This document shows, piece after piece, positions 1,495 to 52,340 of a stretch of 64,000 bases of DNA. The translations under genes and the position numbers were made by a program. The first letter of the stretch is position 1, and every line of letters begins with the position of its first letter. The notes under the pieces are model-generated. The model made no database searches. It had not been told where the DNA came from and saw nothing but the letters and a program-made list of their open reading frames with translations. The DNA is from Candidatus Nomurabacteria bacterium (GTDB taxonomy: Bacteria > Patescibacteriota > Minisyncoccia > Phycocordibacterales > UBA9973), in NCBI GenBank assembly GCA_016699365.1, contig CP064973.1, positions 237,684-301,683 of the forward strand. The letters are read 5' to 3'.

Positions 1495-1644
1495 ATTTGT
1501 TTGAATTAGTGGGAATCTTTCCTTACAGGAACAGTGCACCTTTTCACTCCAATAAAATTGAAGCCTGAAAAGCTTTTCGATTCCTACACGCAAGCAAAGC
1601 AGTTTGCTTGCTCGGGAGGACAAAGCCTCGCTTCGCTCATTTTG

Positions 1645-24138: not shown

Positions 24139-24163
24139 CATAAAACACCGATCTGTCGGTGTT

Positions 24164-40202: not shown

Positions 40203-40229
40203 AAAGCGCCCCACCGGAGCGCTTTTTTT
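40203..40229 (+). terminator. intrinsic terminator hairpin (aagcgc-cccaccgga-gcgctt + T-run), shared by convergent genes
   Basis: Inverted repeat followed by TTTTTTT; overlaps the cca stop. Confidence 0.5.
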
Positions 40230-41712
40230 ACTTTTTTACATTATGTTTTTTGTGTATTTCCCCAAGCTCCTTTTCTTCTGCCTCATCTTTTGTTTGTTTT
40301 GCTTTCTCTCCGAGTTTTTTCAATTCTTCATCTGACAACTCGTTTAGCTCCCCTACTCTCTTGTCCAAGTATTCACGTGTATTTTTTTCTGGTTCATCGA
40401 GCACTTCTTCGAGAAGTGAATTTAGAATCCAACCCATGCGAGGTCCTGCTTTTACACCAAGTTCTTTCATTAGAATATTTCCATCCACTACAAGTTGCGA
40501 TACAGATATCGGATCACGAAGTACTTGCTCGATCATCGCATGATATTTACGCAATCGATAAGGAGCCTCAACTTTTGCCATACCAACACGATCGCACTCG
40601 CGCACATTCATAAGAGTCCAGATATTTTCTACACCTACATTGCGCACAACTCTTCGTACAGCAGAAAGTGTAATCTGTTCTGTGTCAGAGAAGAACATGT
40701 GATATCGCACAAGACTCGTTACAAGCTCGATTGTATCTTTCGGAAACCTCATCCGCTCCATTATCACGCGTGCCATACGAGCACCGACGACTTCGTGTCC
40801 ATAGAAGGTATAAGCTTTCTTGATCCCCTTTCTTCGAGTCTTTGGCTTTCCGATATCGTGAAAGAGCGCAGAGAGTCTGATCTCAAGTGGCCATCCTTTG
40901 TCAGCTGAATGCTGGAGAGCCTGTAGTAAGTGTTCGTATACGTCGAACTTGTGTGCACCTCCTTGCTCACAACCAATCCCCTGTTCAATTTCTGGAATTA
41001 TATATTTGAGCATGCCAGTTTTTTGAAGCATTGCTATTCCAACAATTGGTTCTGGTGACATGATTATTTTTATAAATTCATCACGGGTTCTTTCTGCAGA
41101 TATTTCTGAAATACTTTGGGCAGTTTCAACAATGGCTTGTAACGTATCGCTTTCGATCGCAAATCCAAGTTCACAAGAAAAACGAATTGCTCTAATCATG
41201 CGTAGAGCGTCCTCAGAGAACCTGTCTGAAGAATTACCAACGGTGCGTATAGTTTTGACCTTTATGTCCTTTATACCCTCAAAAAGGTCAATTAATTGGC
41301 TTTTAGATGGGTTGTAGGCCAGTGCGTTGACCGTGAAATCCCTTCTGGATAGGTCGTCGTTTATATTTTTGCTAAAGGACACAGTATCTGGATGTCTTTT
41401 GTCTGAATACTTACCTTCAGTGCGGTATGGTGTTATTTCAATTTGCTTAAGTGTCTTATCTTCTGTATTTTCTAGAATAATCGCAACAGTACCGAAATTA
41501 TTTTCGTATACAGTTTTTTCATATAAAGGAATTATTTCTTCGGGTACTGCATTTGTGGTTATGTCCCAATCTTTTGGTTTACGATTTAACAATAGATCAC
41601 GTACACACCCACCAACAAGAAAAGCCTCAAAACCTGCTTTTTCTAAGGTATTCATTACTTCCAAAATTTCGCTTGGAATACTTTCATTTTTTATTGTCTT
41701 TTCAGGGCTCAT
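40228..41712 (-). CDS. cca: CCA-adding tRNA nucleotidyltransferase with C-terminal HD domain
   Basis: 494 aa; GGCVRDLLL and RRDFTVNAL PolB-type NT motifs; HD motif ALFHDIGK. Confidence 0.8.
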   Translation of the reverse strand: MSPEKTIKNESIPSEILEVMNTLEKAGFEAFLVGGCVRDLLLNRKPKDWDITTNAVPEEIIPLYEKTVYENNFGTVAIILENTEDKTLKQIEITPYRTEGKYSDKRHPDTVSFSKNINDDLSRRDFTVNALAYNPSKSQLIDLFEGIKDIKVKTIRTVGNSSDRFSEDALRMIRAIRFSCELGFAIESDTLQAIVETAQSISEISAERTRDEFIKIIMSPEPIVGIAMLQKTGMLKYIIPEIEQGIGCEQGGAHKFDVYEHLLQALQHSADKGWPLEIRLSALFHDIGKPKTRRKGIKKAYTFYGHEVVGARMARVIMERMRFPKDTIELVTSLVRYHMFFSDTEQITLSAVRRVVRNVGVENIWTLMNVRECDRVGMAKVEAPYRLRKYHAMIEQVLRDPISVSQLVVDGNILMKELGVKAGPRMGWILNSLLEEVLDEPEKNTREYLDKRVGELNELSDEELKKLGEKAKQTKDEAEEKELGEIHKKHNVKK

Positions 41713-41761
41713 TTGAGCTTTTTAGTTAGTAAACATAAGTTTATTAACCTATTGTATTTTG

Positions 41762-41832
41762 TGCGGGATAGGAGAATCGAACTCCTGTCTCATCCTTGGC
41801 AAGGACGTGTTCTACCACTAAACCAATCCCGC
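41762..41832 (-). tRNA. tRNA-Gly (anticodon GCC)
   Basis: Hand-folded: acceptor GCGGGAT/ATCCCGC; anticodon arm CGTCC-TTGCCAA-GGATG; T-arm AGGAG TTCGATT CTCCT. Confidence 0.75.
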
Positions 41833-41913: not shown

Positions 41914-41985
41914 GCACCCATAGTGAAATGGATATCATACCGGTCTTCGGAACCGTTGTTGGGGGTTCGAATCCCTCTGGGTGCA
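41914..41985 (+). tRNA. tRNA-Arg (anticodon UCG)
   Basis: Hand-folded: acceptor GCACCCA/TGGGTGC; D-arm GTGA..TCAT (with G.U); anticodon loop CTTCGGA; T-arm GGGGG TTCGAAT CCCTC. One C.T mismatch in the anticodon stem. Confidence 0.55.
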
Positions 41986-42187
41986 CATGCGAGGAGGACT
42001 ATTGTCCGACGATTCATGTACAAGGCGCAGAGATACTTCAAGTAGCAACTTGAAGTATCGAGCCAGGGGCGCGAAATTTTCTGCGCGACGGCGAAGAAAA
42101 TATTTGTGACCACTAATGACCAAATAGAAACCAATGTCCTTTACACCCTGTCTTTTACACACAAAAAACCCTTATTTTTCAACAAAA

Positions 42188-42196
42188 TGTGGATAA
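42188..42196 (+). promoter_or_regulatory. perfect DnaA-box 9-mer TGTGGATAA
   Basis: Exact match to the reverse complement of the consensus TTATCCACA, about 130 bp upstream of the iteron-like array. Confidence 0.35.
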
Positions 42197-42321
42197 GTGT
42201 GTGTACATAGTTCATAAAGGACAGGTTGTTGGTATAAAGGAAATGGGCGTATATCGCTATTTTAGCTTAATTTATAAGGGTTTTTATCTAGATTGACTGC
42301 AATAATGCTTTTTTGTGTCTT

Positions 42322-42606
42322 ATAAACAGCCTATATGTTTCACGTGAAACATATAGGCTGTTTATATATTAAATTAACCTTTTTTGTTACACATGAAACA
42401 AGAAATATCATCCTTTTGTATGTAAGCACACCAATTTGTGTTTTATTTTTCCAATTGCACATAATTTGGTTTCATGTGTAACAACGAAATTTATAAATAG
42501 CTAATCTTGTTTTTGTTTCATGTGCAACGTTTATATGTAGGTGTATTTACATACTTTTGTTTTTATAATCTCTGTGTAACAATAAAAATACTGTTACACA
42601 TGAAAC
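42322..42606. promoter_or_regulatory. iteron-like array: 5 copies of a 14-bp semi-palindromic motif GTT(T/A)CAC(G/A)TG(A/T)AAC, including a perfect 44-bp palindrome
   Basis: Copies at 42336-42352 (the centre of palindrome 42322-42365 ataaacagcctatatgtttcacgtgaaacatataggctgtttat), 42386-42400, 42468-42483 (reverse), 42515-42528 (reverse) and 42591-42606, the last abutting the yraN ATG. Confidence 0.45.
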
Positions 42607-42981
42607 ATGCCTAAAGTATTTACTTCAAAATCTCAAAAGAAAGGTGAATTGGGAGAGGATTTGGCCTGTAGGTTTCTCATGAAACATGGTTATTATATTG
42701 TGGAGCGTAATTACACACGAAGACTTGGTGAAATAGACATAATAGCCGAAAAATACGGCGTGATTCACTTTATAGAGGTTAAATCAGTCTCTTTTTATGC
42801 AACCATTAGGCCTGAAGAAAATATGCATCCAATGAAATTAAAGAAAATATATAGGACAATAGAGGTTTATATCCAAGAGAGGGGTATAAAGGACAAAGAC
42901 TGGCAACTCGATCTAGTGTGTGTCCTTTTGGATGAAGTGGGGAAGAGGGCTAAATTTAGAGTTATTGAAAATATTGTTTAA
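42607..42981 (+). CDS. yraN: YraN-family (UPF0102) predicted endonuclease
   Basis: 124 aa; KGELGEDLACRFLMKHGYYIVERNYTRRLGEIDIIAEK...IHFIEVKS matches the YraN signature. Confidence 0.7.
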   Translation: MPKVFTSKSQKKGELGEDLACRFLMKHGYYIVERNYTRRLGEIDIIAEKYGVIHFIEVKSVSFYATIRPEENMHPMKLKKIYRTIEVYIQERGIKDKDWQLDLVCVLLDEVGKRAKFRVIENIV

Positions 42982-43110
42982 TTTAAAAATAGAAAATTAT
43001 TTTTATAAAACTCCACGCAATTTAAGTGTTGTCAAAAAAAATAAAAGGTGTAATATTTACTTTGTTCTTTAAACCAATTTAATAACACACAAAAAAACAG
43101 CGATCTGATT

Positions 43111-43518
43111 ATGAGTAAAACCTCAGCCCACTTCTTGGAAATGGAAAAATTTCTAAGATCGAAAATCATCCAAATGAAAAAAATGGGTGATGAACAAAAA
43201 GACAAAGAATTCAAGGCCCTAGCTATGGGAATTGAAGAAGCTGTTGAAGGTCCAAATATGCGGAACTTCAGTCACAGCTTTCATTTCTCAAAAGCGGTAA
43301 ATGCGGTAATCCATCGCAAGGATTTGAATCCACTTTCTCTCGAAGCGACTAAAATTCGTACCGAGGTAAACCTAAAATACAAGCCCGATAGCCTTTCTCC
43401 TACAGAGAAAATTGCGATTGAACTTGTATTGGCTCTGTTAACTTTTTACATACTCGGTAAATACACTGAGTGGGTTGAAAGATTGTTTGAGCGTGCGAAT
43501 GAAGAGGCATTTGCCTAA
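43111..43518 (+). CDS. hypothetical protein
   Basis: 135 aa ORF with an upstream TTGTCA-17-TAATAT promoter-like element. Confidence 0.35.
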   Translation: MSKTSAHFLEMEKFLRSKIIQMKKMGDEQKDKEFKALAMGIEEAVEGPNMRNFSHSFHFSKAVNAVIHRKDLNPLSLEATKIRTEVNLKYKPDSLSPTEKIAIELVLALLTFYILGKYTEWVERLFERANEEAFA

Positions 43519-43637
43519 AATTTTAAACCCTGGGTTACCGGGGTTTTATTTTTGCAAAAAAATGATTTTGGTGTTAATATCGCATAGTATTTAAGTGCTG
43601 TAGAAAAGCGGGCTTGTCCGCTACAGCTTTAACAGAA

Positions 43638-43708
43638 GCGGGATTAGTTAAATGGTATAACTTCAGTTTTCCAAACTGAAATCAAGGGTTCGATTCCCTT
43701 ATCCCGCA
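43638..43708 (+). tRNA. tRNA-Gly (anticodon UCC)
   Basis: Hand-folded: acceptor GCGGGAT/ATCCCGC; D-arm GTTA..TAAC; anticodon arm TCAGT-TTTCCAA-ACTGA; T-arm AAGGG TTCGATT CCCTT. Confidence 0.8.
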
Positions 43709-43763
43709 CATAAAACACACGGCTCGGACGCGAAAGCGTTCGGGTCTTTGTGTTTTACTGCGG

Positions 43764-43881
43764 TAAGGGAATCGAAAGACGGAGACGGTATACAAGACGA
43801 GCGAAGCGAGTGCTTGTCGCCGAGTCGGGGTCGCAGAATTTTTTGTAATAAAATATCTGTGACCGATTCCCTTATCCAATA
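43764..43881 (+). repeat. tRNA-Gly(UCC) 3'-end-derived repeats: inverted copy (43766-43777) and exact 14-nt direct copy CGATTCCCTTATCC (43868-43881)
   Basis: The 14-mer is identical to 43691-43704 of the tRNA. The inverted copy gtaagggaatcg can pair with it. Between them lie GC-rich hairpins (for example acgcgaaagcgt). Confidence 0.5.
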
Positions 43882-43938
43882 CAAACAAACTTGAAAATTA
43901 AGGATATCTCGGCTATACTGAGCGCTCAGGCAAAACAT

Positions 43939-44009
43939 CGGGGTGTAGTATATCGGTAGTATACTTGTTTTGGGAACAAGAGGGCCGGGTTCGATTCCCG
44001 GCACCCCGA
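43939..44009 (+). tRNA. tRNA-Pro (anticodon UGG)
   Basis: Hand-folded: acceptor CGGGGTG/CACCCCG; anticodon arm CTTGT-TTTGGGA-ACAAG; T-arm CCGGG TTCGATT CCCGG. Confidence 0.8.
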
Positions 44010-44101
44010 CAAAGAATAAAAACGGCGTAATGCCGTTTTTATTCTTTGTTATCAAACAAATAGACTGTAACAGAATAATTATTTAGGTATATAATCTAGA
44101 T

Positions 44102-44386
44102 ATGGAAAATATGAATCCACCAGAGGGTGAAAAAGGGAGAGAAAGATTTGTTATTGGTAGTATTAGAAAGTCTCCAATAGAAGAACAAAATAAAATACTC
44201 GATGATATAAAAAAAAGAATCGAGAAAAGCAAAGAAGATAAAACAAAGAAAAAAGAAGGAGGACAAAATGATCCAGAAGGCTCACCAGATGAAGATGAAC
44301 AAAAAATTATTCCCGGAGAACAAAACAAAGAGCCATATTCAAATCCACCAGATAATCCAAATGAAAAAATAGAAAAAGAACCTTAA
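44102..44386 (+). CDS. small acidic/lysine-rich low-complexity protein
   Basis: 94 aa; shares its first codons and the 9 nt upstream (TCTAGATATGGAAAATAT) with the ORF at 45496. Confidence 0.3.
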   Translation: MENMNPPEGEKGRERFVIGSIRKSPIEEQNKILDDIKKRIEKSKEDKTKKKEGGQNDPEGSPDEDEQKIIPGEQNKEPYSNPPDNPNEKIEKEP

Positions 44387-44453
44387 GAAGGTTCTTTTTC
44401 TATTGCTTGCAATTTACTTTAGATAAGAGTAAAAATAACCAAACACTTGTTCA

Positions 44454-45440
44454 ATGAGAGTTAAAAATTTTTGGGATTATAAATCTTATTTTTCTAGCTT
44501 ACTTTTTTGGAGTACGGTGCGCCGCAATATTTATAGAATATTGTGGCGTGTAATCTTATTTTTCATCCTGTCTTTTTTTGGAGCTTGGATACTAGTTGCC
44601 TTGTATGGTTTTTTATTTGAAAGAGGGGAGTACGATCTTTCCGTTGAAACATTTAGTCTACTTTCTCCAGATGCATCAAATTATACAAGTGGGGACCCTG
44701 AGACAGACATGATTGTAAACTATTATGCAGGTAAACAAGATATAAGCAGAGAGTGGAAGATCATGCAATTCTATCAAGACACTTTATTTAGACTTGAATT
44801 GTCTATCTACGGAACAGGAAAGGTAAGAGATAGTATCAAAAATGTAATAAAAAAAATCGAGTCTATGTCGTACGAGGAATTTGATATTGATTTGATAAAG
44901 AGAGGTATTGATATAGAAGAAAGATTTCATTTTGCGCCTGATAGCCTAAACAGTACGGCAACATATCAAACAATATGGAAAATATATTTATCGCTTGGTG
45001 CGCCCAAGTTAAAATATTGTCCGAACTCGAAGTCTTTTCCAATGCAGTACGCAGATGCTTTCTATGACCCAATAAATAATAGAATATTTTTGTCCAAACT
45101 CTTAGAAAGGAATGGAGATTCTTTGAAGGTCAATAGATATTATTGCTATACGTGGAACCCTGACCTTTTCTTGGAGGAGCTTGGGCACGCAAAGCAGTTC
45201 AAAGACAAGCCTGCGAGCTCACTGTCAAAATACTTATCTGGAATGGCAAACTCTAGGTTTGTATCTTTCTGGTCTTTTGTTTCTTTTGAGAAAAACAAAG
45301 ATTGGAGCAGTGCATATAGTTTGGAATATATCAGAAGAGGTTCATTTGAACGAGAAGCTCATTTGGAATTGGGAGGGTTGTATAAACAGATGTTTTATTC
45401 TGTTGTATTTTCTACTCCATATGAAGATATTTTTTATTAG
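44454..45440 (+). CDS. hypothetical membrane-anchored protein
   Basis: 328 aa; N-terminal TM segment; no recognised motif. Confidence 0.4.
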   Translation: MRVKNFWDYKSYFSSLLFWSTVRRNIYRILWRVILFFILSFFGAWILVALYGFLFERGEYDLSVETFSLLSPDASNYTSGDPETDMIVNYYAGKQDISREWKIMQFYQDTLFRLELSIYGTGKVRDSIKNVIKKIESMSYEEFDIDLIKRGIDIEERFHFAPDSLNSTATYQTIWKIYLSLGAPKLKYCPNSKSFPMQYADAFYDPINNRIFLSKLLERNGDSLKVNRYYCYTWNPDLFLEELGHAKQFKDKPASSLSKYLSGMANSRFVSFWSFVSFEKNKDWSSAYSLEYIRRGSFEREAHLELGGLYKQMFYSVVFSTPYEDIFY

Positions 45441-45495
45441 AAAAATCCACCAATTTATTGGTGGATTTTATTTTTGTTTGGAGTATAGTCTAGAT

Positions 45496-45654
45496 ATGGA
45501 AAATATTTTAAATACTGAAAGTCAAAGTTCTCACGAAAGCTCTATTCCAAATACTGCTCCTGACACTAGTGGGCAAAGATATGATGGGGGAGAGCGCGAA
45601 AGTCATCGCGACCATACTCCGTCGAGTGCACCAAGTACTCCAGAACAAAAATAA
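45496..45654 (+). CDS. small (52 aa) Ser/Pro/acidic protein, paralogous start to 44102 gene
   Basis: MENILNTESQSSHESS...; identical 18-nt start region to the 44102 gene. Sits in frame inside the longer ORF 45181-45654, which overlaps the upstream gene. Confidence 0.25.
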   Translation: MENILNTESQSSHESSIPNTAPDTSGQRYDGGERESHRDHTPSSAPSTPEQK

Positions 45655-45666
45655 ATACAAAAGAAA

Positions 45667-45746
45667 AAACCCGGGGATAGGACCGGGTTTTTTCTTATAT
45701 ATACATATACATTTAAATTTTCTAGACCTGCCTGCGCAGGCAGGGA
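45667..45746. terminator. back-to-back terminators: aaaaaacccgg..ccgggtttttt hairpin plus 18-bp GC palindrome cctgcctgcgcaggcagg
   Basis: Inverted repeats with flanking T/A runs, between convergent genes (45496 + and hup -). Confidence 0.5.
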
Positions 45747-45753
45747 AAATCTA

Positions 45754-46026
45754 TTATTTAACTGCGTCCTTGAACGCTTTTGCTGCACGAAACTTTGGAA
45801 CTTTTGTAGCAGCAACTTTTACTTGCTCACCTGTCTTTGGGTTGCGAGCCATACGAGCTGCACGATCTTTTACAGAAAAGATTCCTAGACCTGCGATTGA
45901 AACTTCACCTCCTTTTTTCAAAGTACCGATGATTGCGTCAATCAATCCGTCTACGATTTCTTCAGCCTGCACTTTTGTGCCGCCAACTTTTCCATGAACC
46001 CATTCAACCAATGCTTGTTTATTCAT
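45754..46026 (-). CDS. hup: HU-family DNA-binding protein
   Basis: 90 aa; GLGIFSVKDRAARMARNPKTGEQVKVAATKVPKFRAAKAFKDAV is the HU arm signature. Confidence 0.85.
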   Translation of the reverse strand: MNKQALVEWVHGKVGGTKVQAEEIVDGLIDAIIGTLKKGGEVSIAGLGIFSVKDRAARMARNPKTGEQVKVAATKVPKFRAAKAFKDAVK

Positions 46027-46165
46027 ATATAGTTTTAGTGGTAACTAAGTGGTAATAAACGACCCGCCTCAAGATCCCCGCCATGAGGGAATCATTATGC
46101 GCTTGTAAATAGTATAGCTCCCACTCAAATTTACGCAAGCAGGTAAAGGGATTTTGGGGTTTTAG

Positions 46166-46939
46166 CTACTTTGCCTGCTCCCAAGCAATTTTATACAAAG
46201 ATTTTAGAAGCGAAGCTATCTTACTGTTTTTGATAGTTATTGAATGCAGTCCACTATCCCAAACAGTAAAACAAGCAGTATCTCCAAATATAGATGCTTG
46301 AACTTCTGGGTTATATATTTCCCTTGGAAGAGAGCGAACTTCTCGTCCTTTGCCGATTGCGTCCAATTTTTCACTGTCTGTCATAGGAGAATCTGGCATC
46401 AAAATCATGGATTTTATACCTTTTTTCATACGTAATTTACGGTAATCAGCCAATCTGTCACGAGCAACAGTAAATTTCTCCGGATCTCCACCTAGTCGTA
46501 ACACTTCGCTATGTTTTCCTTCTAGAGAAGAATAAAAAGTTTTCACAAATCCGTCTTCTCCATGAAGTTCTTCGACCACTATAGGTTCTTCGCCTTTTTC
46601 TGTAGCAAAAATAGCATTTAGTTCTGGAAGTGTTTGTTCTAAGATACTTTTTCTTTCATTTAGAATATTTTGATCAAACTCAACAAGAGATCTAATCCTT
46701 TCTGGGGTGTCTATATAAAAAAGTCTTCGTTTGCCTTGCTTGTGCACTAAGACAACTCCACGTTCAATAAGTTCTTCGGTTGCTAGGTGGACACTTGAAC
46801 GAGGAAGACCGACTGATTTTGCGAGATCTTGAATAGACAGAAGTCCTGCACCAAGTAAGCTAGAGAACACTTCAACTTGTGTCCTGTCTAAACCCGCTTT
46901 ACGAAGAGAAGATTTAAATTCTTGAGATAATTGTTTCAT
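46166..46939 (-). CDS. TrmB-family transcriptional regulator
   Basis: 257 aa; N-terminal wHTH (LDRTQVEVFSSLLGAG..SIQDLAKSVGLPRSSVHLATEELIERG). Confidence 0.5.
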   Translation of the reverse strand: MKQLSQEFKSSLRKAGLDRTQVEVFSSLLGAGLLSIQDLAKSVGLPRSSVHLATEELIERGVVLVHKQGKRRLFYIDTPERIRSLVEFDQNILNERKSILEQTLPELNAIFATEKGEEPIVVEELHGEDGFVKTFYSSLEGKHSEVLRLGGDPEKFTVARDRLADYRKLRMKKGIKSMILMPDSPMTDSEKLDAIGKGREVRSLPREIYNPEVQASIFGDTACFTVWDSGLHSITIKNSKIASLLKSLYKIAWEQAK

Positions 46940-47029
46940 AAAATGACAGAAATCTTTGACAAAATATTATTAAATCCAACAAAACCCATTATATACTTGA
47001 TTTTACTGGAATACAAGTAGTATAAATCA

Positions 47030-47772
47030 TTGACATTTAACTTCAGTCGTGTTACACTATCTCCAGATAAGTTCGATGAAGAAATCCAATCGAGGTGAGA
47101 TTACCGGAAGTTGCGTGGTTGCCATTTCTGGTAACCTCCCTTCGATTAGGGAAAAGATTCACGTTGAATAGATTGCTCATTATCTAAAAGGCGCACCAGG
47201 CGGATCTGGTGGAACCACAAAAATGAGTAGGGCGAGTCTTCACAGATTTTCCTAGAGTCTACAAAAAACACTTCCGAGGTTCGTTGTCGAACAAAGAATG
47301 TTTTAAATCGGGTCCCGTGTATGGATTCTAGCCACACAGCTGTGTAGGAGTGATCGATGGCCTTAAAAAGCTGGAGATTGCGTACGGAATTCATACCTTG
47401 GTGTAGCTCTAAAGTTTTCGGAAAAGGGATTGCCAATGTGTCCGTGGCACCCTTTTCTCGAAGATAGATTAAGTTGATCTTTTTCAAAGCAAAAATATGG
47501 GTGACCTTACCCAACCTGTCAGAGACAGGCAAAGGCTATGCATCTTCACAATAAAGCTGGATTGATTCTGGCCTGAATCAATCACAACTTTAGCGTATCC
47601 AAGTTTTTCGGCAGCGGTACTCGTTTGCAGCTTGACTGCAAACGAGGATTCCCTCAAAAACTAAAGTGGAGGCTCGCAATCTCTACAGGAAAAACTTACA
47701 GTACCGGCGGGTACTGCAAAGTAATGAAGAATGGACGATCGCAATTGTCGGTCGTCCTTTTTATCCAGACTA
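47030..47772 (+). ncRNA. candidate large (about 700 nt) structured non-coding RNA with sigma70-like promoter and intrinsic terminator; class unknown
   Basis: TTGACA (47030-35), 17 nt spacer, TACACT (47053-58). No credible plus-strand ORF. GC visibly higher than the neighbours. Several perfect hairpins, for example ctcgtttgcag/ctgcaaacgag (11 bp), gattgattc/gaatcaatc (9 bp) and gtacc-ggcg-ggtac. The terminator is ggacga..tcgtcc + TTTTTAT at 47733-47762. Confidence 0.3.
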
Positions 47773-47831
47773 CAATTTCGATTGCGGTTTGGTAGAAAGT
47801 AAAAAGTTCTTTTCACTTACAAAATAAATAA

Positions 47832-48230
47832 ATGAAATCCACAAAGAGTTACGTAAAAGAATTGGAAGATTTACTTGGACCAGTCGATGAAAAAATAACA
47901 AAGGAGGTAAATGACCACTTTGAAAAAATAGAACAACAATATAAATGGATGGAAGAAAATAATATTCCACAAGATTTGAGGAAGTATTATTTTGATCTTG
48001 AAGTTTTGAAGACACATGACTACAAGCCTGTAGCTGTAACTACAATGATGTGCGAAAACACTTTTGTTTTTGAAACAGAAGATGAAGCAATTAGAGCATT
48101 TGAACAATTTGAGAAACATCCAAGCGGTGAATATATATCAGGTTGGTGGTACAGCAGAGAATCTTTTGATAGCTCAATCAAAGAGTATGCAAAAGAGGTT
48201 GGCTATGATCCGAAAGTTATCTGGTTCTAA
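47832..48230 (+). CDS. hypothetical protein
   Basis: 132 aa ORF; acidic; no recognised motif. Confidence 0.35.
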   Translation: MKSTKSYVKELEDLLGPVDEKITKEVNDHFEKIEQQYKWMEENNIPQDLRKYYFDLEVLKTHDYKPVAVTTMMCENTFVFETEDEAIRAFEQFEKHPSGEYISGWWYSRESFDSSIKEYAKEVGYDPKVIWF

Positions 48231-48252
48231 ATCTAAAAAATTAAAAAAACTT

Positions 48253-48414
48253 ATGGAAAACACATTGGACAAAATTGACCTTCAAAAAGAGGCTGACAAA
48301 TTACTTTTGAAAAACGGTTTTCAAACAACCGGCGATAAAAAAAAGAGGATTTGCAAAGCACAAAGATTTTTTGAGAAACGTATTTTGATAACACCAATGG
48401 GGCATAAGAGATAA
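48253..48414 (+). CDS. small (53 aa) basic hypothetical protein
   Basis: Internal Met start (MENTLDKIDLQ...) of ORF 48064-48414, chosen to avoid overlap with the upstream gene. Speculative. Confidence 0.2.
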   Translation: MENTLDKIDLQKEADKLLLKNGFQTTGDKKKRICKAQRFFEKRILITPMGHKR

Positions 48415-48649
48415 GTTGTACATGTCGGACGGGTAACCTGTATAACCCATCACCGTTCCACGAAGGGTATGGGGGCCGACATCCTGGGAAATGAGAAGTG
48501 GTCAAATGAACCGCTTCTCATCTTTATCAGACTCATGAGTTTGTTTCGTGGGTCTGTAGAGATATTGAAGTATAAACAGAGAGCATTGCGTAGGCACTGC
48601 AGTGCTCCGTGTTTGTTCTTTAAATAGTTTCACGAGTAAAAATCTATAT

Positions 48650-48889
48650 ATGGATATTCAGAAGTTAAACTCAGCTATCGGTAAAAAAGTATTTGTCGTA
48701 TCGCTCCGTATGAGAGTAATGCGAGTGAGTGATTATGGAAAACTCGAAATGGTAAATGAACCAAACAATATTATTTTGGCTAAAATGCCGTTTGGAGACA
48801 GCATAATCCCATTTGATGAAATCTTAAAGGTCTATGATGATCAAGGTTATGTTGTTTACGACAATGAGCCTTCTAAAAAGAAGAAATAA
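48650..48889 (+). CDS. small hypothetical protein
   Basis: 79 aa from MDIQKLNSAIGKKVFVV... Preceded by the AGTTTCACGAGTAAAA motif that is shared with the next gene. Confidence 0.3.
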   Translation: MDIQKLNSAIGKKVFVVSLRMRVMRVSDYGKLEMVNEPNNIILAKMPFGDSIIPFDEILKVYDDQGYVVYDNEPSKKKK

Positions 48890-48991
48890 CCTGATACGAA
48901 GATATATTCCATACGTTTAGTCAGTTTCACAAGTAAAACGAAAAAAGACAAAAGAAACGTTACACAAAACTAAACTAAAAAACGTAAACGT

Positions 48992-49324
48992 ATGGAAAGA
49001 GAAACTTTTACCGTAACCCTTTGGTTCAAGGAAACAAAGGACGGGAAACGGGAGCGACCTGTTTCACTTACTTATCATCTCGACGGCTTCTATAGCAAGA
49101 AGCAAACCAATCTACTCTATAAAATATATTCTGATGTTTATGGTCAGATAAGTATGAGTGGGTATGGATGGCTCGATGAAGCGGTAGTGTGTATATGGAT
49201 TCTCCCTAAACAACCTTTTCTCCCTTCTACATTGCGCTACTGTGAAACAGTGAAGGCTTGGCTCGATTTTATTGAGTTTCAAGTTTCTGTAACAGTCAGC
49301 ATATTGTATGAGAAGGAAAGTTAA
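48992..49324 (+). CDS. small hypothetical protein
   Basis: 110 aa; upstream motif AGTTTCACAAGTAAAA (48911-48926). Confidence 0.3.
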   Translation: MERETFTVTLWFKETKDGKRERPVSLTYHLDGFYSKKQTNLLYKIYSDVYGQISMSGYGWLDEAVVCIWILPKQPFLPSTLRYCETVKAWLDFIEFQVSVTVSILYEKES

Positions 49325-49380
49325 TTCAAAGAAGGGAGCAATCCCTTCTTTTTTCATTTAATTTTTTAAAACAAAAAATT

Positions 49381-49542
49381 ATGAGCAAGAACAAGAAAAA
49401 TATTCGTATTGTAATCAAGAAAGATTTAGCAAAAGACAATCGTGAGATGTCCAGAAATGTATTTGCTAATGTAAATGTAAAAGAGAAGTCATTCAAGGAT
49501 AAGTCCAAATATACAAGAAAGGTAAAACATAAAGACACTTGA
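49381..49542 (+). CDS. small (53 aa) highly basic protein
   Basis: MSKNKKNIRIVIKKDLAKDNREMSRNVFANVNVKEKSFKDKSKYTRKVKHKDT. Its stop codon lies inside the -35 box of the downstream promoter. Confidence 0.25.
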   Translation: MSKNKKNIRIVIKKDLAKDNREMSRNVFANVNVKEKSFKDKSKYTRKVKHKDT

Positions 49543-49810
49543 CAAACACTAGCTACAATGTTATACTACTCCTAGCTCAATAAAAGAGCTTATATTGATC
49601 CGGCAGCCGTGTTGGCGTCCGCTAGCTTTCGCAAGAAAGCCCGTGGACTAGAACAACCGGCATAATTAGGTCAGGGCGATAATGATGAGAACGAATTCTT
49701 GATTCTAAACCATGTGGGGTTTGGAAAAGATATGAAGGGAAGCCCTAAAACAAATTGCGATGTGCCATGGCCTATCGCGCCCCCGAACTTTTTAAGTTTG
49801 GGGGTTTTTT
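49539..49810 (+). ncRNA. candidate sRNA/leader (about 240 nt) with consensus sigma70 promoter and intrinsic terminator; class unknown
   Basis: TTGACA (49539-44), 17 nt spacer, TATACT (49562-67). GNRA hairpin GCTTTC-GCAA-GAAAGC. Long-range pairing GGGCGATA/TATCGCGCCC. Terminator cccccgaactt..aagtttggggg + T7 at 49779-49810. Longest internal ORF is 28 aa. Confidence 0.35.
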
Positions 49811-49828
49811 TATGTTAAAATTCATAAT

Positions 49829-49986
49829 ATGACAAATCCAAAATACACACCCGAGGAATACAAAGAAATAGTCGAGAAGATAAAAAATGGTACTGCAACA
49901 GAGTCCGAGATAAAAGATATCGAGGAACTTGTTCGCAACGCAACAATCGAGATTAATAATATTTTAGAGGAAGACAAGAATTAATT
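49829..49986 (+). CDS. small (52 aa) acidic hypothetical protein
   Basis: ATG-to-TAA ORF MTNPKYTPEEYKEIVEKIKNG... immediately after the terminator. Speculative. Confidence 0.2.
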
Positions 49987-49987
49987 T

Positions 49988-50362
49988 ATGGACAAAGAAC
50001 CAACACAAAATACAATAGAGAATACAGAATCAGTGGATATGGAACAGTTTGGTGAGAATATAAAAAATGCATCTCCAAGTACTCTTCTAAAAATAAAAGA
50101 GGTTATGAAACGCCCTGAAACATGGACTGGTATAGCGACCATGGTAATGGGAAGCATCGTAGGAGTACAGGTATTTGAACATAGTGAGGTGGTAAAAGAA
50201 AACTGGGATGATCTAGGGAAAAGCGCAGAAAGTTTTCGAGGCGTTTTAAATGCTTATAAGGTTTTTGCTTCTGGTGTGTTCACAATGGGAGTCCTAGTAA
50301 CAATGCTTGGGATAAGTAAAGGTGGTGATATTGCAAAACAAAAAGCTAATTTAGAACAATAA
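49988..50362 (+). CDS. hypothetical protein with two hydrophobic segments
   Basis: 124 aa ORF. Confidence 0.35.
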   Translation: MDKEPTQNTIENTESVDMEQFGENIKNASPSTLLKIKEVMKRPETWTGIATMVMGSIVGVQVFEHSEVVKENWDDLGKSAESFRGVLNAYKVFASGVFTMGVLVTMLGISKGGDIAKQKANLEQ

Positions 50363-50490
50363 AACCCGCAAGGGTTTTTGTTTTTTATAACCTATACCAC
50401 GCACTCGGTAATCTAGAGTTTATTTACCGGAAAATTTTTCTCTTATCCACCACTTTTAAAAAGCACACATAAAATCCTGCTGGATTTTTG
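50361..50490 (-). repeat. conserved intergenic RNA-like element, copy D (minus strand)
   Basis: Its reverse complement aligns base-for-base with copy A across roughly 130 nt, including the 5' hairpin aaaatccagcaggatttt and the terminator aaaaaccc-ttgc-gggtttt. Confidence 0.5.
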
Positions 50491-50813
50491 CTCAACTCGC
50501 GCCGGCCGCGCTCCGTCAGGCTTTTTAGAAAGTGTGGATTTATTTATATAGGAATTCAGAATCCTTGAGCCCAGGCTTTGCCCTTCAATTCCACGAGTAT
50601 ACGAACAAACGAGGACGAACGTTCCGTAAGGAAAAAGTATTCTGTTTGAGACAGCAGGCGAGTTAATACTTTTAGTGAGTCCGAGTTTTGTGAGTATTCG
50701 TGGGATTGAATGCAAAGAGGTTTTTGTGTTACTTTTTTGAAAAATTAACGATTAAAAAACAAAGAAAAATTCCGCAAAGCGGAATTTTTCTTTTGTTCAG
50801 TCTGATTTCAAAC

Positions 50814-52340
50814 CTATCTCGCGTATTCGATAACTCTCGTTTCTCGAATCAAAGTCACCTTAATCTCACCTGGATATTTCAATTCAGATTCAATTTTCTT
50901 TGCGATATCACGAGCCATCTCCTTTGCTTCTACATCGCCAACTTTTTCTGGAGTTACGAATAGTCTGATTTCACGTCCAGCCTGCAATGCGTATGATTTC
51001 TCTACACCATCGAAGTTGTTTACAAGTGCTTCAAGTTCTGCAAGACGACGAAGGTAGTTTTCGACACTGTCGCGTCTAGCACCAGGACGTCCTCCAGATA
51101 TATAGTCAGCTGTTTGTACTATCACAGCTTCAATAGTTTCGTGAGGTACATCATCATGGTGAGATTTCATCGCTGTAATTACGCGTGGGTCAGCGCCAAA
51201 TTTTTGAAGTATTCGAATACCAATGTCTATGTGTGTACCTTGCACCTCATGATCAAGTGCTTTACCTATATCGTGAACAAGTGCACCTGCTTTTGCTATT
51301 TGTACATCAGCCCCAAGTTCCTCGGCAATCATACCTGCGATATGGGTCATCTCGATAGAGTGTTGGAGTACGTTTTGTCCATAACTTGTACGGAAATATA
51401 GACGTCCGATTATAGCTACTATACGAGGGTCGAAGTTGAATATTCCACATTCGTAAACTGCTTGCTCACCCTTTTCTTTGATAATTTTATTTATATCTTC
51501 TTTTGCTTTGTCTACCATCTCTTCGATCTTTGCTGGCTGGATACGTCCATCAAGAATCAGGTTTTCAAGTGCAAGGCGTGCTATCTGTCTACGTACTGGA
51601 TCAAAGCTAGATATAACAATAGTTCCAGGTGTGTCGTCTACGATTAGCTCCACTCCTGCAGCGCGTTCAAACGCTCTGATGTTGCGCCCTTCTTTTCCTA
51701 TAATTTTTCCTTTGATTTCGTCGTTTGGAATAGTTACGTTTGTTGCCATAAGCTCGGCTGCAGTCGAAGACGCAAGACGTTGGATAGATGTAGACAATAT
51801 ATCTTTGGCTCTAGAGTCTAACTTTTCTTGACCAGATTGTTCTAATTTTTGCATACGAACAAGAAGGTCTTCTTCGTAATCTTTCTCTATAGTGCTCATA
51901 AGCTCAACCTTAGCATCCTCTCGAGTTAGTTTTGACACACGTTCTAGTTCTTTGTGTTTTTCTTCTTCTAGTTCAACTGTCTTTTCTTTTATTTTTTTTA
52001 TCTCTTCAACTTTTAGTTTTATATTTTCAACCTCTCTATCTATTTCAGTTTGGCGTGCATCTAGAAGCTCCTCTTTTTTGATTAGTCTTTTTTCGGTTTC
52101 TTTGAATTCTATTTCACGATTTTTCTCTTCTTTTTTAAGTTCTTCGTCACGCTCCTCGGCCTTTTTCTTGGCTTCGTCTGTTATTCTCTGTGCTTCCTCT
52201 TTTGCAGAGATCAGGATCTTTTTGATCTCAAGCTCCATTGAGCCCTTTTGTCCAAGGGCTATGATTAGTCGGAGATAATATCCGACGGCAACTCCCACGA
52301 CTAGAGCTAGTCCTAGGAATGCTAATAAATGTAAATTCAT
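50814..52340 (-). CDS. rny: ribonuclease Y
   Basis: 508 aa; N-terminal TM; coiled-coil; KH domain; HD domain (HSIEMTHIAGMIA...VHDIGK). Confidence 0.85.
   Translation of the reverse strand: MNLHLLAFLGLALVVGVAVGYYLRLIIALGQKGSMELEIKKILISAKEEAQRITDEAKKKAEERDEELKKEEKNREIEFKETEKRLIKKEELLDARQTEIDREVENIKLKVEEIKKIKEKTVELEEEKHKELERVSKLTREDAKVELMSTIEKDYEEDLLVRMQKLEQSGQEKLDSRAKDILSTSIQRLASSTAAELMATNVTIPNDEIKGKIIGKEGRNIRAFERAAGVELIVDDTPGTIVISSFDPVRRQIARLALENLILDGRIQPAKIEEMVDKAKEDINKIIKEKGEQAVYECGIFNFDPRIVAIIGRLYFRTSYGQNVLQHSIEMTHIAGMIAEELGADVQIAKAGALVHDIGKALDHEVQGTHIDIGIRILQKFGADPRVITAMKSHHDDVPHETIEAVIVQTADYISGGRPGARRDSVENYLRRLAELEALVNNFDGVEKSYALQAGREIRLFVTPEKVGDVEAKEMARDIAKKIESELKYPGEIKVTLIRETRVIEYAR

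What the first reader, a model, noticed from the sequence alone, without database searches (positions are those of the whole stretch)
41914..50810. tRNA-flanked region enriched in orphan small genes, paralogous gene starts, GC-anomalous non-coding blocks and regulators: possible integrated or remnant mobile element carrying novel ncRNAs
From tRNA-Arg to the RNase Y gene the content changes character. Several features recur. There are four tRNAs with duplicated 3' ends. There is the iteron-like array. There are 12 or more small ORFs of about 50-135 aa without recognisable domains. Two of these (44102, 45496) share an identical 18-nt start region (TCTAGATATGGAAAATAT). Two (48650, 48992) share an upstream AGTTTCAC(G/A)AGTAAAA motif. 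Regulators present are HU and a TrmB-like regulator on the opposite strand and YraN. There are two promoter/terminator-bounded non-coding units and a GC-rich structured leader at 48417-48600 with 9-12 bp perfect hairpins. Copy D of the multi-copy element is also here. There is no integrase in the region; the nearest XerC/D-like recombinase is at 30786. The region could therefore be a decayed island, a satellite-like element, or simply an ncRNA-rich accessory region. It is the part of the window most likely to hide an undescribed system.
Basis: inference. Interest (0 to 1): 0.6.

Follow-up and report, generated by a model that had tools for sequence, protein, structure and literature searches.

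The report
Conserved tRNA neighbourhood with tRNA-mimic trailers
This 9-kb stretch is not an inserted mobile element but an ordinary, vertically inherited part of a tiny "candidate phyla radiation" bacterial genome. Its GC-rich non-coding blocks are nevertheless real: two belong to a widespread, apparently undescribed family of small folded elements that sit just behind tRNA genes and copy the tRNA's own 3' end.

Summary
In about 30 or more of 80 related Paceibacterota genomes the chain ClpP-RNase Y-HU-tRNAGly/Pro-YraN-tRNAGly/Arg-CCA enzyme recurs, and only the spacing varies. Composition is typical of the window. No integrase is present and no distal tRNA repeat bounds the region. Four conspecific strains are colinear. 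The small ORFs lack Pfam, PHROG and PADLOC matches, but seven of them are under purifying selection against the nearest species (dN/dS 0.09-0.25), so they are real, fast-evolving lineage genes.

The GC-rich blocks behind tRNA-Gly(TCC) and tRNA-Arg are tRNA-trailer elements. A 100-250 nt structured module follows the tRNA. Its arms are complementary to that tRNA's T-arm and acceptor 3' strand, and it often ends in a direct copy of the tRNA 3' end. A covariance model finds 45 copies in the relatives and one more in this window (1498-1625). A motif scan finds at least 120 metagenome contigs, behind 32 tRNA species. Rfam has no match.

The block beside RNase Y (50419-50770) is a covarying, roughly 300-nt two-hairpin element that changes place and orientation between species. 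Three long structured leaders precede small ORFs. All functions remain inferred.

The parts
41761..41832 (-). tRNA-Gly(GCC), part of the conserved divergent tRNA pair next to the CCA-enzyme gene
41914..41986 (+). tRNA-Arg(TCG)
41987..42125 (+). Degenerate class-2 tRNA-trailer remnant. It shares only the 3' half of the class-2 module (CGAGCC.GGGGCGCGAAATTTT...AAATATTTGTGACC) and lacks the anti-T arm and the copy of the tRNA end.
   Evidence: folding z -4.7; 4.3% strain divergence against 0% in the tRNA; L001 has a canonical class-1 module at this tRNA instead
42150..42227 (.). Conserved DNA block with an invariant DnaA-box-like TGTGGATAA flanked by an inverted repeat (GTCYTTTTA / TAAARGAC). No RNA structure; likely a protein-binding or promoter region.
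   Evidence: blastn hits in 20 loci; 10/10 invariant box in the alignment; boxes are not clustered
42337..42606 (.). Array of six palindromic GTTTCAYGTG / GTTACACATGAAAC sites directly upstream of the yraN start; operator-like and conserved in relatives
   Evidence: homologous palindromes in L001, L003, L012, L014, L031, L063, L070
42607..42981 (+). YraN/UPF0102 gene (core)
   Evidence: dN/dS 0.15
43111..43518 (+). Lineage-specific 135-aa gene
   Evidence: found only in L001 (63% aa); pN 0.24 against pS 0.88
43638..43709 (+). tRNA-Gly(TCC)
43710..43883 (+). Class-2 tRNA-trailer element, in order: terminator-like hairpin, anti-acceptor CTGCGG, anti-T arm TAAGGGAATCGAAAG, structured core, then a partly decayed direct copy of the tRNA 3' end (CGATTCCCTTATCC)
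   Evidence: (D11); z -9.0; homologues directly behind the tRNA in L001, L005, L024, L078
43939..44010 (+). tRNA-Pro(TGG) with its own promoter-like site and terminator; no trailer element
44102..45654 (+). Three lineage-specific genes (94, 328 and 52 aa). The first and third share the promoter/start module TATA(A/G)TCTAGATATGGAAAATAT.
   Evidence: The 328-aa protein has 6 cluster representatives among 5.8 billion sequences, the other five at 62-80% identity; dN/dS 0.10
45754..46026 (-). HU (core)
   Evidence: found in 58 of 80 loci
46166..46939 (-). TrmB-type wHTH regulator; ortholog next to HU in L003, L035, L045, L048
47030..47762 (+). Promoter, conserved 5' hairpin (47088-47157), about 600 nt of structured body that cannot be aligned with L001, and a terminator. 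This is a long leader or ncRNA ahead of the 132-aa ORF.
   Evidence: identical in 4 strains
47832..48414 (+). Two small genes (132 and 53 aa); strain-level divergence hotspot (about 10%)
48415..48612 (+). GC-rich structured leader ending in a terminator-like hairpin, ahead of the 79-aa ORF
   Evidence: 3' part 80% conserved in L001
48650..49542 (+). Three small lineage-specific ORFs (79, 110 and 53 aa)
49539..49812 (+). Promoter, about 240 nt of structured leader and a terminator, ahead of the 51-aa and 124-aa ORFs. L001 has a GC-rich structured block with a terminator at the same position but no detectable sequence similarity.
49829..50362 (+). Two small ORFs (51 aa; 124 aa with hydrophobic segments)
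50419..50770 (.). Element E: two long hairpin domains (D1 about 50571-50720, D2 about 50445-50539). D2 plus the terminator is the 'multi-copy element'. The transcribed strand is unresolved.
1498..1625 (-). Canonical class-1 tRNA-trailer element behind the tRNA at 1644-1717; lies outside the finding's coordinates
   Evidence: 83.7 bits, E 6e-21; arms 9/9 and 12/12 complementary to the tRNA

Best explanation
SHOWN. The segment is a vertically inherited core neighbourhood of a Paceibacterota (CPR) genome: CCA enzyme, tRNA-Gly/Arg, yraN, tRNA-Gly/Pro, HU, RNase Y, ClpP. The gaps between these genes are hypervariable between species. They are filled with real but fast-evolving lineage-specific small genes and with structured non-coding elements. 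It is not an integrated or decayed mobile element.

The GC-rich blocks behind tRNA-Gly(TCC) and tRNA-Arg belong to a widespread family of tRNA-trailer elements. Each is a module of about 125 nt (100-250 nt overall) lying 0-170 nt downstream of a tRNA on the same strand. The module has three covarying hairpins. It carries two arms complementary to the T-loop/T-stem and acceptor 3' strand of that particular tRNA. In about half the cases it ends in a near-perfect direct copy of the tRNA 3' end. Arms and copy together can therefore form an acceptor/T-arm minihelix identical to that of the neighbouring tRNA. The block next to RNase Y is a separate covarying two-hairpin element that has changed place and orientation between species.

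INFERRED. My preferred mechanism for the trailers (about 40%) is that the tRNA-sense strand is transcribed, by read-through or directly, into a tRNA-mimicking RNA. That RNA would either pair with the tRNA 3' end or fold on its own copy of it, and would be handled by the tRNA end-processing machinery (RNase P/Z, CCA enzyme) as a punctuation or quality-control signal at the end of tRNA operons. The three promoter-leader-terminator units are most simply cis-acting attenuator-type leaders of the small ORF operons.
For: NOT AN ISLAND
- Synteny: RNase Y is followed by HU in 58 of 80 loci, YraN in 41 and CCA in 33, in the same order with the same tRNA set. The RNase Y-HU gap ranges from about 0.1 to about 10 kb.
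- Tetranucleotide distance z is -0.3 to -0.7 for 42-51 kb.
- No distal tRNA-end copies exist.
- Four strains are colinear at 98.2-99.7% identity.

SMALL ORFS ARE GENES
- dN/dS is 0.09-0.25 with saturated dS, against 0.01-0.03 for HU, RNase Y and ClpP.

TRAILER FAMILY
- 31 of 176 tRNAs have a copy of their own 3' end (>=13/16) 70-310 nt downstream, against 2 upstream.
- The covariance model gives 45 hits at E<1e-5, and 38 of them lie directly behind a same-strand tRNA.
- The anti-T arm matches the tRNA at 10.9/12 on average, against 7.1 for shuffled sequence.
- The motif occurs in at least 120 metagenome contigs. Of 125 matches, 96 lie within 400 nt downstream of a tRNA, covering 32 isoacceptors, and the arms again match at 10.9/12.
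- Covariation: 97.4% of cells are paired, against 77% shuffled and 33-52% slid. Sixteen of 18 pairs show double changes.
- G.U 37 against A.C 6 places the folding on the tRNA-sense strand.
- Several tRNAs on one contig each carry their own module.

ELEMENT E
- 33 pairs show compensatory changes among only 3 homologues, against 3-9 in slid controls.
- Its position and orientation differ in L001 and L002.

LEADERS
- Promoter and terminator matches, z-scores of -3.6 to -7.3, and a conserved promoter plus 5' hairpin in L001.
Against: - No expression data exist, so every RNA role is inferred.
- Half of the modules (43/87) are preceded by a terminator-like hairpin plus T-run and only 16/87 are followed by one. 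Routine co-transcription with the tRNA is therefore doubtful.
- A direct repeat of a tRNA 3' end starting in the T-loop is the classical scar of site-specific integration. Tandem and degenerate copies occur.
- Presence at orthologous tRNAs is patchy, and the Arg trailer differs in kind between this genome and L001. These points fit a DNA-level or mobile origin.
- A processing signal would not need to match the individual tRNA.
- The window's own two trailers are the variant class 2, which the class-1 model does not detect. The Arg one is incomplete.
- The leaders have only one or no alignable homologue, so they have no covariation support.
Confidence: 0.75

Rival explanations
1. The tRNA trailers are DNA-level elements. 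They would be miniature non-autonomous integrative or recombination modules, comparable to integron attC sites or the folded single-strand attP of CTX phage. Their arms plus the sense copy would fold, on the top strand, into a duplex that recreates the tRNA gene's T-arm/acceptor end. A host tyrosine recombinase acting in trans would recombine this with the tRNA gene, duplicating the tRNA 3' end.
For: - A direct copy of the tRNA end begins in the T-loop, as for integrase crossover sites.
- The order tRNA, terminator, arms, hairpins, copy is what recombination of a circle with the tRNA 3' end would give.
- Tandem and decayed copies occur (L018, L024, L035, L049).
- The same core lies behind 32 different tRNAs.
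- Presence among orthologous sites is patchy.
- A terminator usually separates the tRNA from the module.
- Strand-specific G.T tolerance is also expected for a folded single strand.
Against: - No integrase homologue was found in 742 kb around 120 modules, and the only Xer-like gene is a housekeeping core gene.
- Cargo-bearing cases are explained by other insertions: extra tRNA fragments in L090 and about 90-bp inverted repeats in L130.
- Modules are kept at the same tRNA across species whose synonymous sites are saturated.
- The arms stay complementary to the tRNA even where the distal copy has decayed.
- No empty-site/filled-site pair was found.
Confidence: 0.3
2. The whole 41.9-50.8 kb region is a decayed genomic island or phage satellite that entered at the tRNA cluster and lost its integrase.
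For: - tRNA genes lie at one end.
- There are many ORFans without domains.
- Small-ORF content differs even in the nearest species.
- In other genomes small defence or toxin-antitoxin cargos are lodged between a tRNA and its trailer (L042, L007, L130).
Against: - The backbone order is conserved in dozens of species, including HU, the TrmB-like gene, yraN and the tRNAs inside the supposed island.
- Composition is typical.
- No att repeat exists.
- No PHROG or PADLOC families match.
- The small ORFs are syntenic and under purifying selection in L001.
- Four strains show no presence/absence variation.
Confidence: 0.05
3. The trailers are functionless by-products. Fold-back or template-switch replication at the tRNA terminator palindrome would extend the palindrome into the tRNA 3' end and create the arms. 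Slippage would create the direct copy. Quasi-palindrome correction would keep the three copies alike. The conserved core would be a hitch-hiking repeat of the REP/MITE type.
For: - The tRNA end, A-run, hairpin, T-run and anti-acceptor arm together form one long perfect palindrome.
- The tRNA, arms and copy evolve in concert without an obvious need.
- Degenerate copies are common.
Against: - Covariation is strong in three hairpins that are not part of the palindrome.
- Single-stranded junction motifs are conserved (AAAG, ACCUG, GUA loop) across at least 54 sequences from many tRNAs.
- Retention across species argues for selection on a folded molecule.
Confidence: 0.12
4. The DnaA-box block and the repeat array between tRNA-Arg and yraN mark the chromosomal replication origin or a plasmid-type iteron origin.
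For: - A perfect TGTGGATAA is invariant in 10/10 species.
- Six clustered repeats follow it.
- yraN and the tRNA-Gly(GCC)/CCA-enzyme side are transcribed divergently from this interval.
Against: - There is only one perfect box here, and boxes are not clustered in the window (29 found with <=1 mismatch against 21 expected).
- There is no GC-skew turning point at 42 kb.
- No dnaA or rep gene is adjacent.
- The array abuts the yraN start codon like an operator.
Confidence: 0.08

Closest known systems
tRNA-gene-targeting integrative elements and genomic islands (attL = tRNA, attR = partial tRNA 3' copy)
   Same: The trailers have a direct repeat of the tRNA 3' end that starts in the T-loop, downstream of an intact tRNA. 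Successive and decayed copies occur.
   Different: The unit is 100-250 nt and non-coding. No integrase was found in cis in about 170 examples. It contains arms antisense to the tRNA end and a conserved covarying core. It sits behind many tRNAs of one genome. The 9-kb region itself has none of the island hallmarks.
tRNA-like processing signals: plant mitochondrial t-elements, mascRNA-type tRNA mimics, viral TLS (from general knowledge, not tested here)
   Same: These are acceptor/T-arm minihelix mimics placed next to genes. They could be read by RNase P, RNase Z and the CCA-adding enzyme.
   Different: Here the mimic copies the sequence of the adjacent tRNA. The D/anticodon domain is replaced by one conserved hairpin and the T-loop by two hairpins. 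No processing has been shown, and a terminator often lies in front.
Integron attC sites and CTX-phage folded single-strand attP
   Same: Structure is conserved more than sequence, folding is strand-specific, and the site re-creates a duplex resembling the target. Arrays occur.
   Different: No IntI or neighbouring recombinase is present. No R/L core boxes were identified. Most units carry no cassette ORF. The anchor is any tRNA 3' end rather than attI or dif.
REP/BIME, Correia, RUP-type small intergenic repeats
   Same: Element E and the trailers are short, structured, multi-copy intergenic units near terminators. Their position and orientation change between relatives.
   Different: The trailers are tied to tRNAs with locus-specific arms. 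E shows compensatory evolution over about 250 nt in three species, which suggests a functional fold rather than decaying inverted repeats.
Long 5' leaders with terminators (riboswitch, T-box or protein-dependent attenuators)
   Same: The three units share the architecture promoter, 200-700 nt of structured RNA, intrinsic terminator, ORF.
   Different: No Rfam family matches even at E<=5. The bodies are not conserved in the nearest species. No ligand or regulator is known.

Membership tests
Genomic island / integrative element at a tRNA | Integrase or recombinase gene inside or at the edge | tested here: not met
   No such Pfam domain in any ORF from 42.6 to 50.4 kb. The nearest recombinase (30786-31706) is a conserved core gene.
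Genomic island / integrative element at a tRNA | Direct repeat of the tRNA 3' end at the far border | tested here: not met
   The Arg and Pro tRNA ends are unique in the 64 kb at <=3 mismatches. The only copy is 154 nt behind tRNA-Gly(TCC).
Genomic island / integrative element at a tRNA | Deviant composition | tested here: not met
   GC is 0.32-0.40 and tetranucleotide z is -0.3 to -0.7. The window's outlier is 17.5-25 kb.
Genomic island / integrative element at a tRNA | Absent from close relatives, with conserved flanks joined | tested here: not met
   HU, yraN and the tRNAs inside the region are syntenic in 33-58 of 80 loci. Four strains are colinear. Only the small ORFs vary.
Phage satellite / prophage remnant | Phage-family genes (integrase, primase/rep, packaging or capsid-redirecting) | tested here: not met
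   PHROGs gave no credible hit for 10 ORFs. Motif scans of viral contigs gave no match for the trailer motif and one chance 17-mer for element E.
Anti-phage defence island | Known defence-system proteins | tested here: not met
   PADLOC matched only the wHTH part of the TrmB-like protein, to Csa3/CasR models.
Iteron-type replicon / oriC | Repeats together with an adjacent rep or dnaA gene, clustered DnaA boxes and a skew switch | tested here: not met
   The repeats are real, but there is no rep or dnaA gene, only a single box and no skew turn. The array is conserved upstream of yraN in relatives.
Any Rfam 15 RNA family | Covariance-model match | tested here: not met
   Only tRNAs reach gathering score. 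Nothing credible appears at E<=5 in 41.5-51 kb or at E<=1 in four loci with canonical trailers.
tRNA-like structured RNA (t-element-like) | Acceptor plus T-stem minihelix formed by the element | tested here: met
   Arms and the distal copy are complementary and track the tRNA. The acceptor part is missing or decayed in about 40% of copies.
tRNA-like structured RNA (t-element-like) | Transcribed and cleaved by RNase P/Z, or receives CCA | not testable with these tools
   No expression or biochemical data. The terminator in front of 43/87 modules is a caution.
Integron attC-like recombination site | Associated IntI-type recombinase and cassette ORFs | tested here: not met
   No tyrosine recombinase homologue lies near 120 modules. 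Most modules directly follow the tRNA with no ORF.
Integron attC-like recombination site | Strand-specific folded site with structure conserved over sequence | tested here: inconclusive
   Covariation and the G.U/G.T bias are present, but they are equally compatible with an RNA.

The most novel reading that the evidence does not exclude
The tRNA-trailer modules are a previously undescribed and widespread class of nucleic-acid element in CPR bacteria that is 'programmed' by the neighbouring tRNA. It would be either a tRNA-mimic RNA that monitors or punctuates tRNA transcripts, or a folded recombination site that uses any tRNA 3' end as its anchor. Its core is shared behind at least 32 different tRNA species. 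Element E and the three long leaders would then be further uncharted RNAs of the same genomes.
Probability: 0.45. Interest if true: 0.75.

Novelty: new variant of a known kind. Interest (0 to 1): 0.55.

Why it matters
For the scan, the result shows that "tRNA plus ORFans plus odd GC blocks" in a CPR genome need not mean an island. Synteny and dN/dS turn it into ordinary core genome with fast-evolving filler.

The by-product is more interesting. A large, strongly covarying element family sits behind tRNA genes, absent from Rfam and not found in my literature searches. It copies and base-pairs with the 3' end of its own tRNA.

If it is an RNA, it points to an unknown layer of tRNA transcript handling in organisms with minimal RNase sets. 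If it is a DNA site, it would be a new way of using tRNA genes as recombination anchors without a linked integrase. Either way, the sequence rules found here make it directly testable.

Tried and rejected
- Rfam at gathering and permissive thresholds on the region and on four loci with canonical trailers returned only tRNAs.
- Viral-contig scans were uninformative. The trailer H1 motif gave none; the element E 17-mer gave one hit with no further similarity, so it is chance.
- The motif AAATATYTGTGACC shared by the two window trailers has no exact match in the 80 loci. It is explained later as the class-2 3' stem.
- I considered whether the modules mark the far end of cargo islets, since four cargo cases exist: an OLD-like ATPase, a Panacea-type toxin-antitoxin pair, a nucleotidyltransferase plus 2-TM protein, and a pyrophosphatase plus ASCH protein (cargo names are my reading of the translations and were not scanned). 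On inspection L090 has extra tRNA fragments and L130 has about 90-bp inverted repeats, so these are separate insertions. I dropped this as evidence for module mobility.
- No integrase association was found.
- I noted an apparent dichotomy between anti-acceptor and sense-acceptor matches, but did not rely on it. Many metagenome copies have both.
- I considered hammerhead-type core motifs by eye and rejected them because the junction order does not fit.
- I considered RNase P, SRP, tmRNA, 6S and T-box identities for the 240-nt and 700-nt units by eye and through Rfam, and rejected them.
- The oriC idea was rejected.
- A common fold for the 240-nt unit and its positional counterpart in L001 was inconclusive with two sequences.
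- Two literature searches found no description of such tRNA-linked modules. A third, on miniature integrative elements, gave only general background.

Full report
WHAT THE REGION CONTAINS

ARAGORN and Rfam agree on four tRNAs at the left end: Gly-GCC 41761-41832(-), Arg-TCG 41914-41986(+), Gly-TCC 43638-43709(+) and Pro-TGG 43939-44010(+). Pfam identifies YraN/UPF0102 (42607-42981), HU (45754-46026, -), a TrmB-type wHTH protein (46166-46939, -) and RNase Y (50814-52340, -). Just outside lie a CCA-adding enzyme (40228-41712, -) and ClpP. Eleven further ORFs of 51-328 aa have no Pfam, PHROG or PADLOC family. Rfam finds nothing but tRNAs, even at E<=5.

CHECK OF THE INDIVIDUAL OBSERVATIONS

- The repeat array is real. 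GTTTCAYGTG occurs six times in 42337-42606 and nowhere else in the window (0.17 expected).
- The 18-nt identity at 44095 and 45489 is real. It extends to a 23-nt module, TATA(A/G)TCTAGATATGGAAAATAT, which reads as a -10-like box plus start codon (my reading).
- The AGTTTCACRAGTAAAA pair is only weakly above chance.
Promoter-like sites as a class are not enriched.
- All non-coding blocks fold far better than dinucleotide shuffles: z -9.0 for the Gly trailer, -7.3 for the 700-nt unit, -6.8 for the leader, -5.6 for E domain 1, -4.7 for the Arg trailer and -3.6 for the 240-nt unit. Three CDS controls are near 0.
- 'Four tRNAs with duplicated 3' ends' is overstated. Only tRNA-Gly(TCC) has a downstream copy.

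IS IT AN ISLAND?

I fetched 80 species-level genome loci around RNase Y homologues, all Paceibacterota/Nomurabacteria-type MAGs. tblastn plus ARAGORN gives the same chain again and again: ClpP, RNase Y, a variable gap, HU, tRNA-Gly(TCC) and tRNA-Pro(TGG), YraN, tRNA-Gly(GCC) and tRNA-Arg(TCG), CCA enzyme.

HU is present in 58 loci, YraN in 41 and CCA in 33. Most of the remainder are short contigs. The RNase Y-HU gap ranges from about 0.1 kb (L010) to about 10 kb (L015), and it is 4.8 kb here. tRNA orientation and order flip often between species. For example, the Gly-GCC/Arg-TCG pair occurs in both inverted states.

GC and tetranucleotide use of 42-51 kb are typical of the window. The real outlier is 17.5-25 kb. 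No second copy of the Arg or Pro tRNA end exists in the 64 kb. Four assemblies of the same species are colinear over 41.5-48.4 kb at 98.2-99.7% identity with no large indel.

The small ORFs are mostly shared only with the nearest species, L001 (RNase Y 96% aa), at 36-78% identity. Against L001 they show dN/dS of 0.09-0.25 with saturated dS, compared with 0.01-0.03 for HU, RNase Y and ClpP. They are therefore real genes that evolve 5-15 times faster than the core.

The 328-aa protein has only six cluster representatives among 5.8 billion sequences: its own cluster and five others at 62-80% identity. Because dS is about 1 or more, unconstrained non-coding DNA should be unalignable between the window and L001. 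The non-coding pieces that do align at 73-94% identity are therefore under constraint.

Conclusion: this is core neighbourhood with hypervariable filler, not an integrated element.

THE tRNA TRAILERS

The block behind tRNA-Gly(TCC) (43710-43883) is conserved directly behind the orthologous tRNA in L001, L005, L024 and L078. It reads, in order:
- tRNA end;
- a terminator-like hairpin;
- CTGCGG, antisense to the acceptor 3' strand;
- TAAGGGAATCGAAAG, antisense to the T-stem 3' strand and T-loop;
- a structured core;
- CGATTCCCTTATCC, a direct copy of the tRNA 3' end.

The arm and the copy covary between species.

I generalised this over the 176 usable tRNAs of the window plus loci (179 predicted). 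Thirty-one have a copy of their last 16 nt (>=13/16) 70-310 nt downstream, and 27 of these are >=15/16. The upstream control gives 2.

Most inserts share a conserved core, which I call class 1. Its parts, in order, are:
- an anti-acceptor arm;
- hairpin H1 (GCAAGCAAACUNCUUUGCUUGC);
- CGUG followed by the anti-T arm;
- (A/U)UCGAAAG;
- hairpin H2 (CUUUUC...GAAAAG);
- ACCUG;
- a short hairpin H3 with a GUA loop;
- the copy of the tRNA end.

A covariance model built from 18 copies finds 45 hits at E<1e-5 in 1.33 Mb. Thirty-eight of them lie 0-170 nt behind a same-strand tRNA, and most 'orphans' sit at contig ends with tRNA-like tails. One hit is in this window at 1498-1625(-), behind the tRNA at 1644-1717 (83.7 bits).

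The anti-T arm matches the upstream tRNA at 10.9/12 on average (7.1 shuffled). It stays matched (11.2/12) in the 17 copies whose distal acceptor copy has decayed.

Of 125 matches, 96 lie within 400 nt behind a tRNA, covering 32 isoacceptors, and the arms again match at 10.9/12. Forty-nine have a near-perfect distal copy. Contigs with several tRNAs often have a module behind each, for example 3 of 3 in L167.

On 54 aligned modules, 97.4% of cells pair, against 77% shuffled and 33-52% slid. Sixteen of 18 pairs show double changes. This alignment was fitted to the model, which inflates these figures somewhat. Non-Watson-Crick pairs are G.U 37 against A.C 6, so the folding strand is the tRNA-sense strand.

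No Rfam family matches, no viral contig carries the motif, and three literature searches found no description.

The window's Gly trailer is a variant, class 2, that lacks H1. The Arg trailer shares only the class-2 3' half and lacks both the arm and the copy. It diverges by 4.3% between strains while the tRNA diverges by 0%, so it looks like a decaying remnant. L001 carries a canonical class-1 module at that tRNA instead.

WHAT THE TRAILERS MIGHT BE

Two models fit.

(a) A tRNA-mimic RNA. The arms plus the copy form the acceptor/T-arm minihelix of the neighbouring tRNA. H1 stands in place of the D/anticodon domain, and H2/H3 stand in place of the T-loop. Alternatively, the arms can pair with the real tRNA 3' end across the terminator hairpin. 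Such an RNA could be cut by RNase P or RNase Z, or receive CCA, as a punctuation or quality-control signal.

(b) A DNA-level recombination or mobile module, of the att, attC or folded-attP type.

For (a):
- covarying hairpins with a G.U bias;
- conserved junction motifs;
- retention at the same tRNA across species;
- several modules per genome;
- arms kept complementary to the tRNA.

For (b):
- the tRNA-end direct repeat starting in the T-loop;
- tandem and decayed copies;
- patchy presence;
- a terminator-like hairpin plus T-run in front of 43/87 modules but behind only 16/87.

Against (b):
- no recombinase homologue in 742 kb around the modules;
- the few cargo-bearing cases turned out to be separate insertions.

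A neutral palindrome-extension origin remains possible but does not explain the conserved core. I favour (a) at about 0.4, (b) at about 0.3, and the neutral origin at about 0.1. These three figures concern the trailers only and leave the remainder unassigned. They are separate from the 0.75 given to the overall reading of the region.

ELEMENT E AND THE MULTI-COPY ELEMENT

The block 50419-50770 next to RNase Y has homologues in L002 (78.5%) and L001 (73%). In L002 it is inverted relative to RNase Y. In L001 it lies beyond ClpP, where the window has only a 90-nt partial copy (54190-54282), and RNase Y itself is inverted there.

The three sequences support two long hairpin domains. Ninety-four per cent of cells are paired and 33 pairs show compensatory changes, against 3-9 in slid controls. 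That structure was derived from the same sequences, which is a caveat. The transcribed strand is unresolved. The energies favour the window + strand, while the terminator position favours the - strand. No Rfam hit.

THE THREE LEADERS

Three units have the same architecture: promoter, long structured RNA, terminator, small ORF.
- 47030 to 47757, ahead of the 132-aa ORF.
- 48415 to 48607, ahead of the 79-aa ORF.
- 49539 to 49805, ahead of the 51-aa and 124-aa ORFs.

For the first, the promoter, a 5' hairpin (47088-47157, 94% identical) and the segment after the terminator (93%) are conserved in L001. The roughly 600-nt body cannot be aligned with L001. For the third, L001 has a GC-rich structured block with a terminator at the same place (z -3.7) but no detectable similarity and no clear common fold. 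These are plausible cis-regulatory leaders but lack covariation support.

THE yraN UPSTREAM REGION

A 75-nt block (42150-42227) with an invariant TGTGGATAA is conserved in 20 loci and shows no RNA structure. The six-site palindromic array follows it and runs into the yraN start codon. Related palindromes occupy the same place in relatives. This looks like a conserved operator/promoter region. An origin is unlikely.

VERDICT

The observations are mostly sound. The island or satellite interpretation is not supported, and 'ncRNA-rich accessory stretch within a core neighbourhood' is the right description. The most valuable outcome is the tRNA-trailer family, which is well supported as a real, widespread, structured element. 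Its mechanism is still inferred.

Noticed in passing
window 1644-1717 (-) and 1498-1625 (-): ARAGORN calls this tRNA 'Stop (tta)'. With a single nucleotide 26 and a 5-nt variable loop, the anticodon loop reads CUUUUAA, that is tRNA-Lys(UUU). This is my reading of the sequence and was not re-run with another program. It is followed by a canonical class-1 tRNA-trailer element (83.7 bits).
   Followed up: partly
window 17500-25000: The only compositional outlier of the window: GC 0.29 against 0.36 and tetranucleotide distance z +2.4. It is a better island candidate than the region under study.
   Followed up: no
window 50733-52545 against L001 9793-11731: RNase Y with its terminator is inverted in the nearest species while both flanks stay colinear. 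Element E sits at a different place there.
   Followed up: partly
window 47832-48414; also 45754-46026: Among four otherwise near-identical conspecific strains, divergence is concentrated in the two small ORFs at 47832-48414 (about 10%) and in HU (2.8%). Most other features show 0 differences. The pattern is a mosaic that suggests recombination or diversifying alleles.
   Followed up: partly
L001 1625-1696 against window 43638-43709: At the orthologous site L001 has tRNA-Gly(GCC) instead of tRNA-Gly(TCC). The distal copy in its trailer matches the GCC tRNA, and the arm has followed through a G.U intermediate.
   Followed up: partly
80 loci, tRNA clusters: Individual tRNA genes and the Gly-GCC/Arg-TCG pair are found in both orientations and orders among species while the protein genes keep their order. 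This indicates recurrent small inversions at tRNA genes.
   Followed up: no
L130 398-3677; L042 8269-10874; L007 13745-15381; L090 125-2337: Small cargos are lodged between a tRNA and its trailer. They are a nucleotidyltransferase plus 2-TM protein flanked by about 90-bp perfect inverted repeats, an OLD-like ATPase plus HTH protein, a Panacea/SocA-like pair, and a pyrophosphatase plus ASCH protein. The cargo names are my reading of the translations and were not scanned against any library. The tRNA-trailer junction seems to be an insertion hotspot.
   Followed up: partly
window 3073-3239 (+) and 54190-54282 (+): Further copies of domain 2 of element E, each followed by an intrinsic terminator. 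Neither is next to a tRNA.
   Followed up: partly
window 44089-44112 and 45483-45506: A duplicated module, TATA(A/G)T-CTAGAT-ATG, places a -10-like box 6 nt before the start codon of two small ORFs. This suggests leaderless or near-leaderless transcripts.
   Followed up: no
window 8358-8960 and 61774-62922: A 324-nt tandem duplication (72-80% identity) lies at 8358-8960. Glycine-rich GGTGGAGG repeats lie at 61774-62922. Both are probably internal repeats of large proteins.
   Followed up: no
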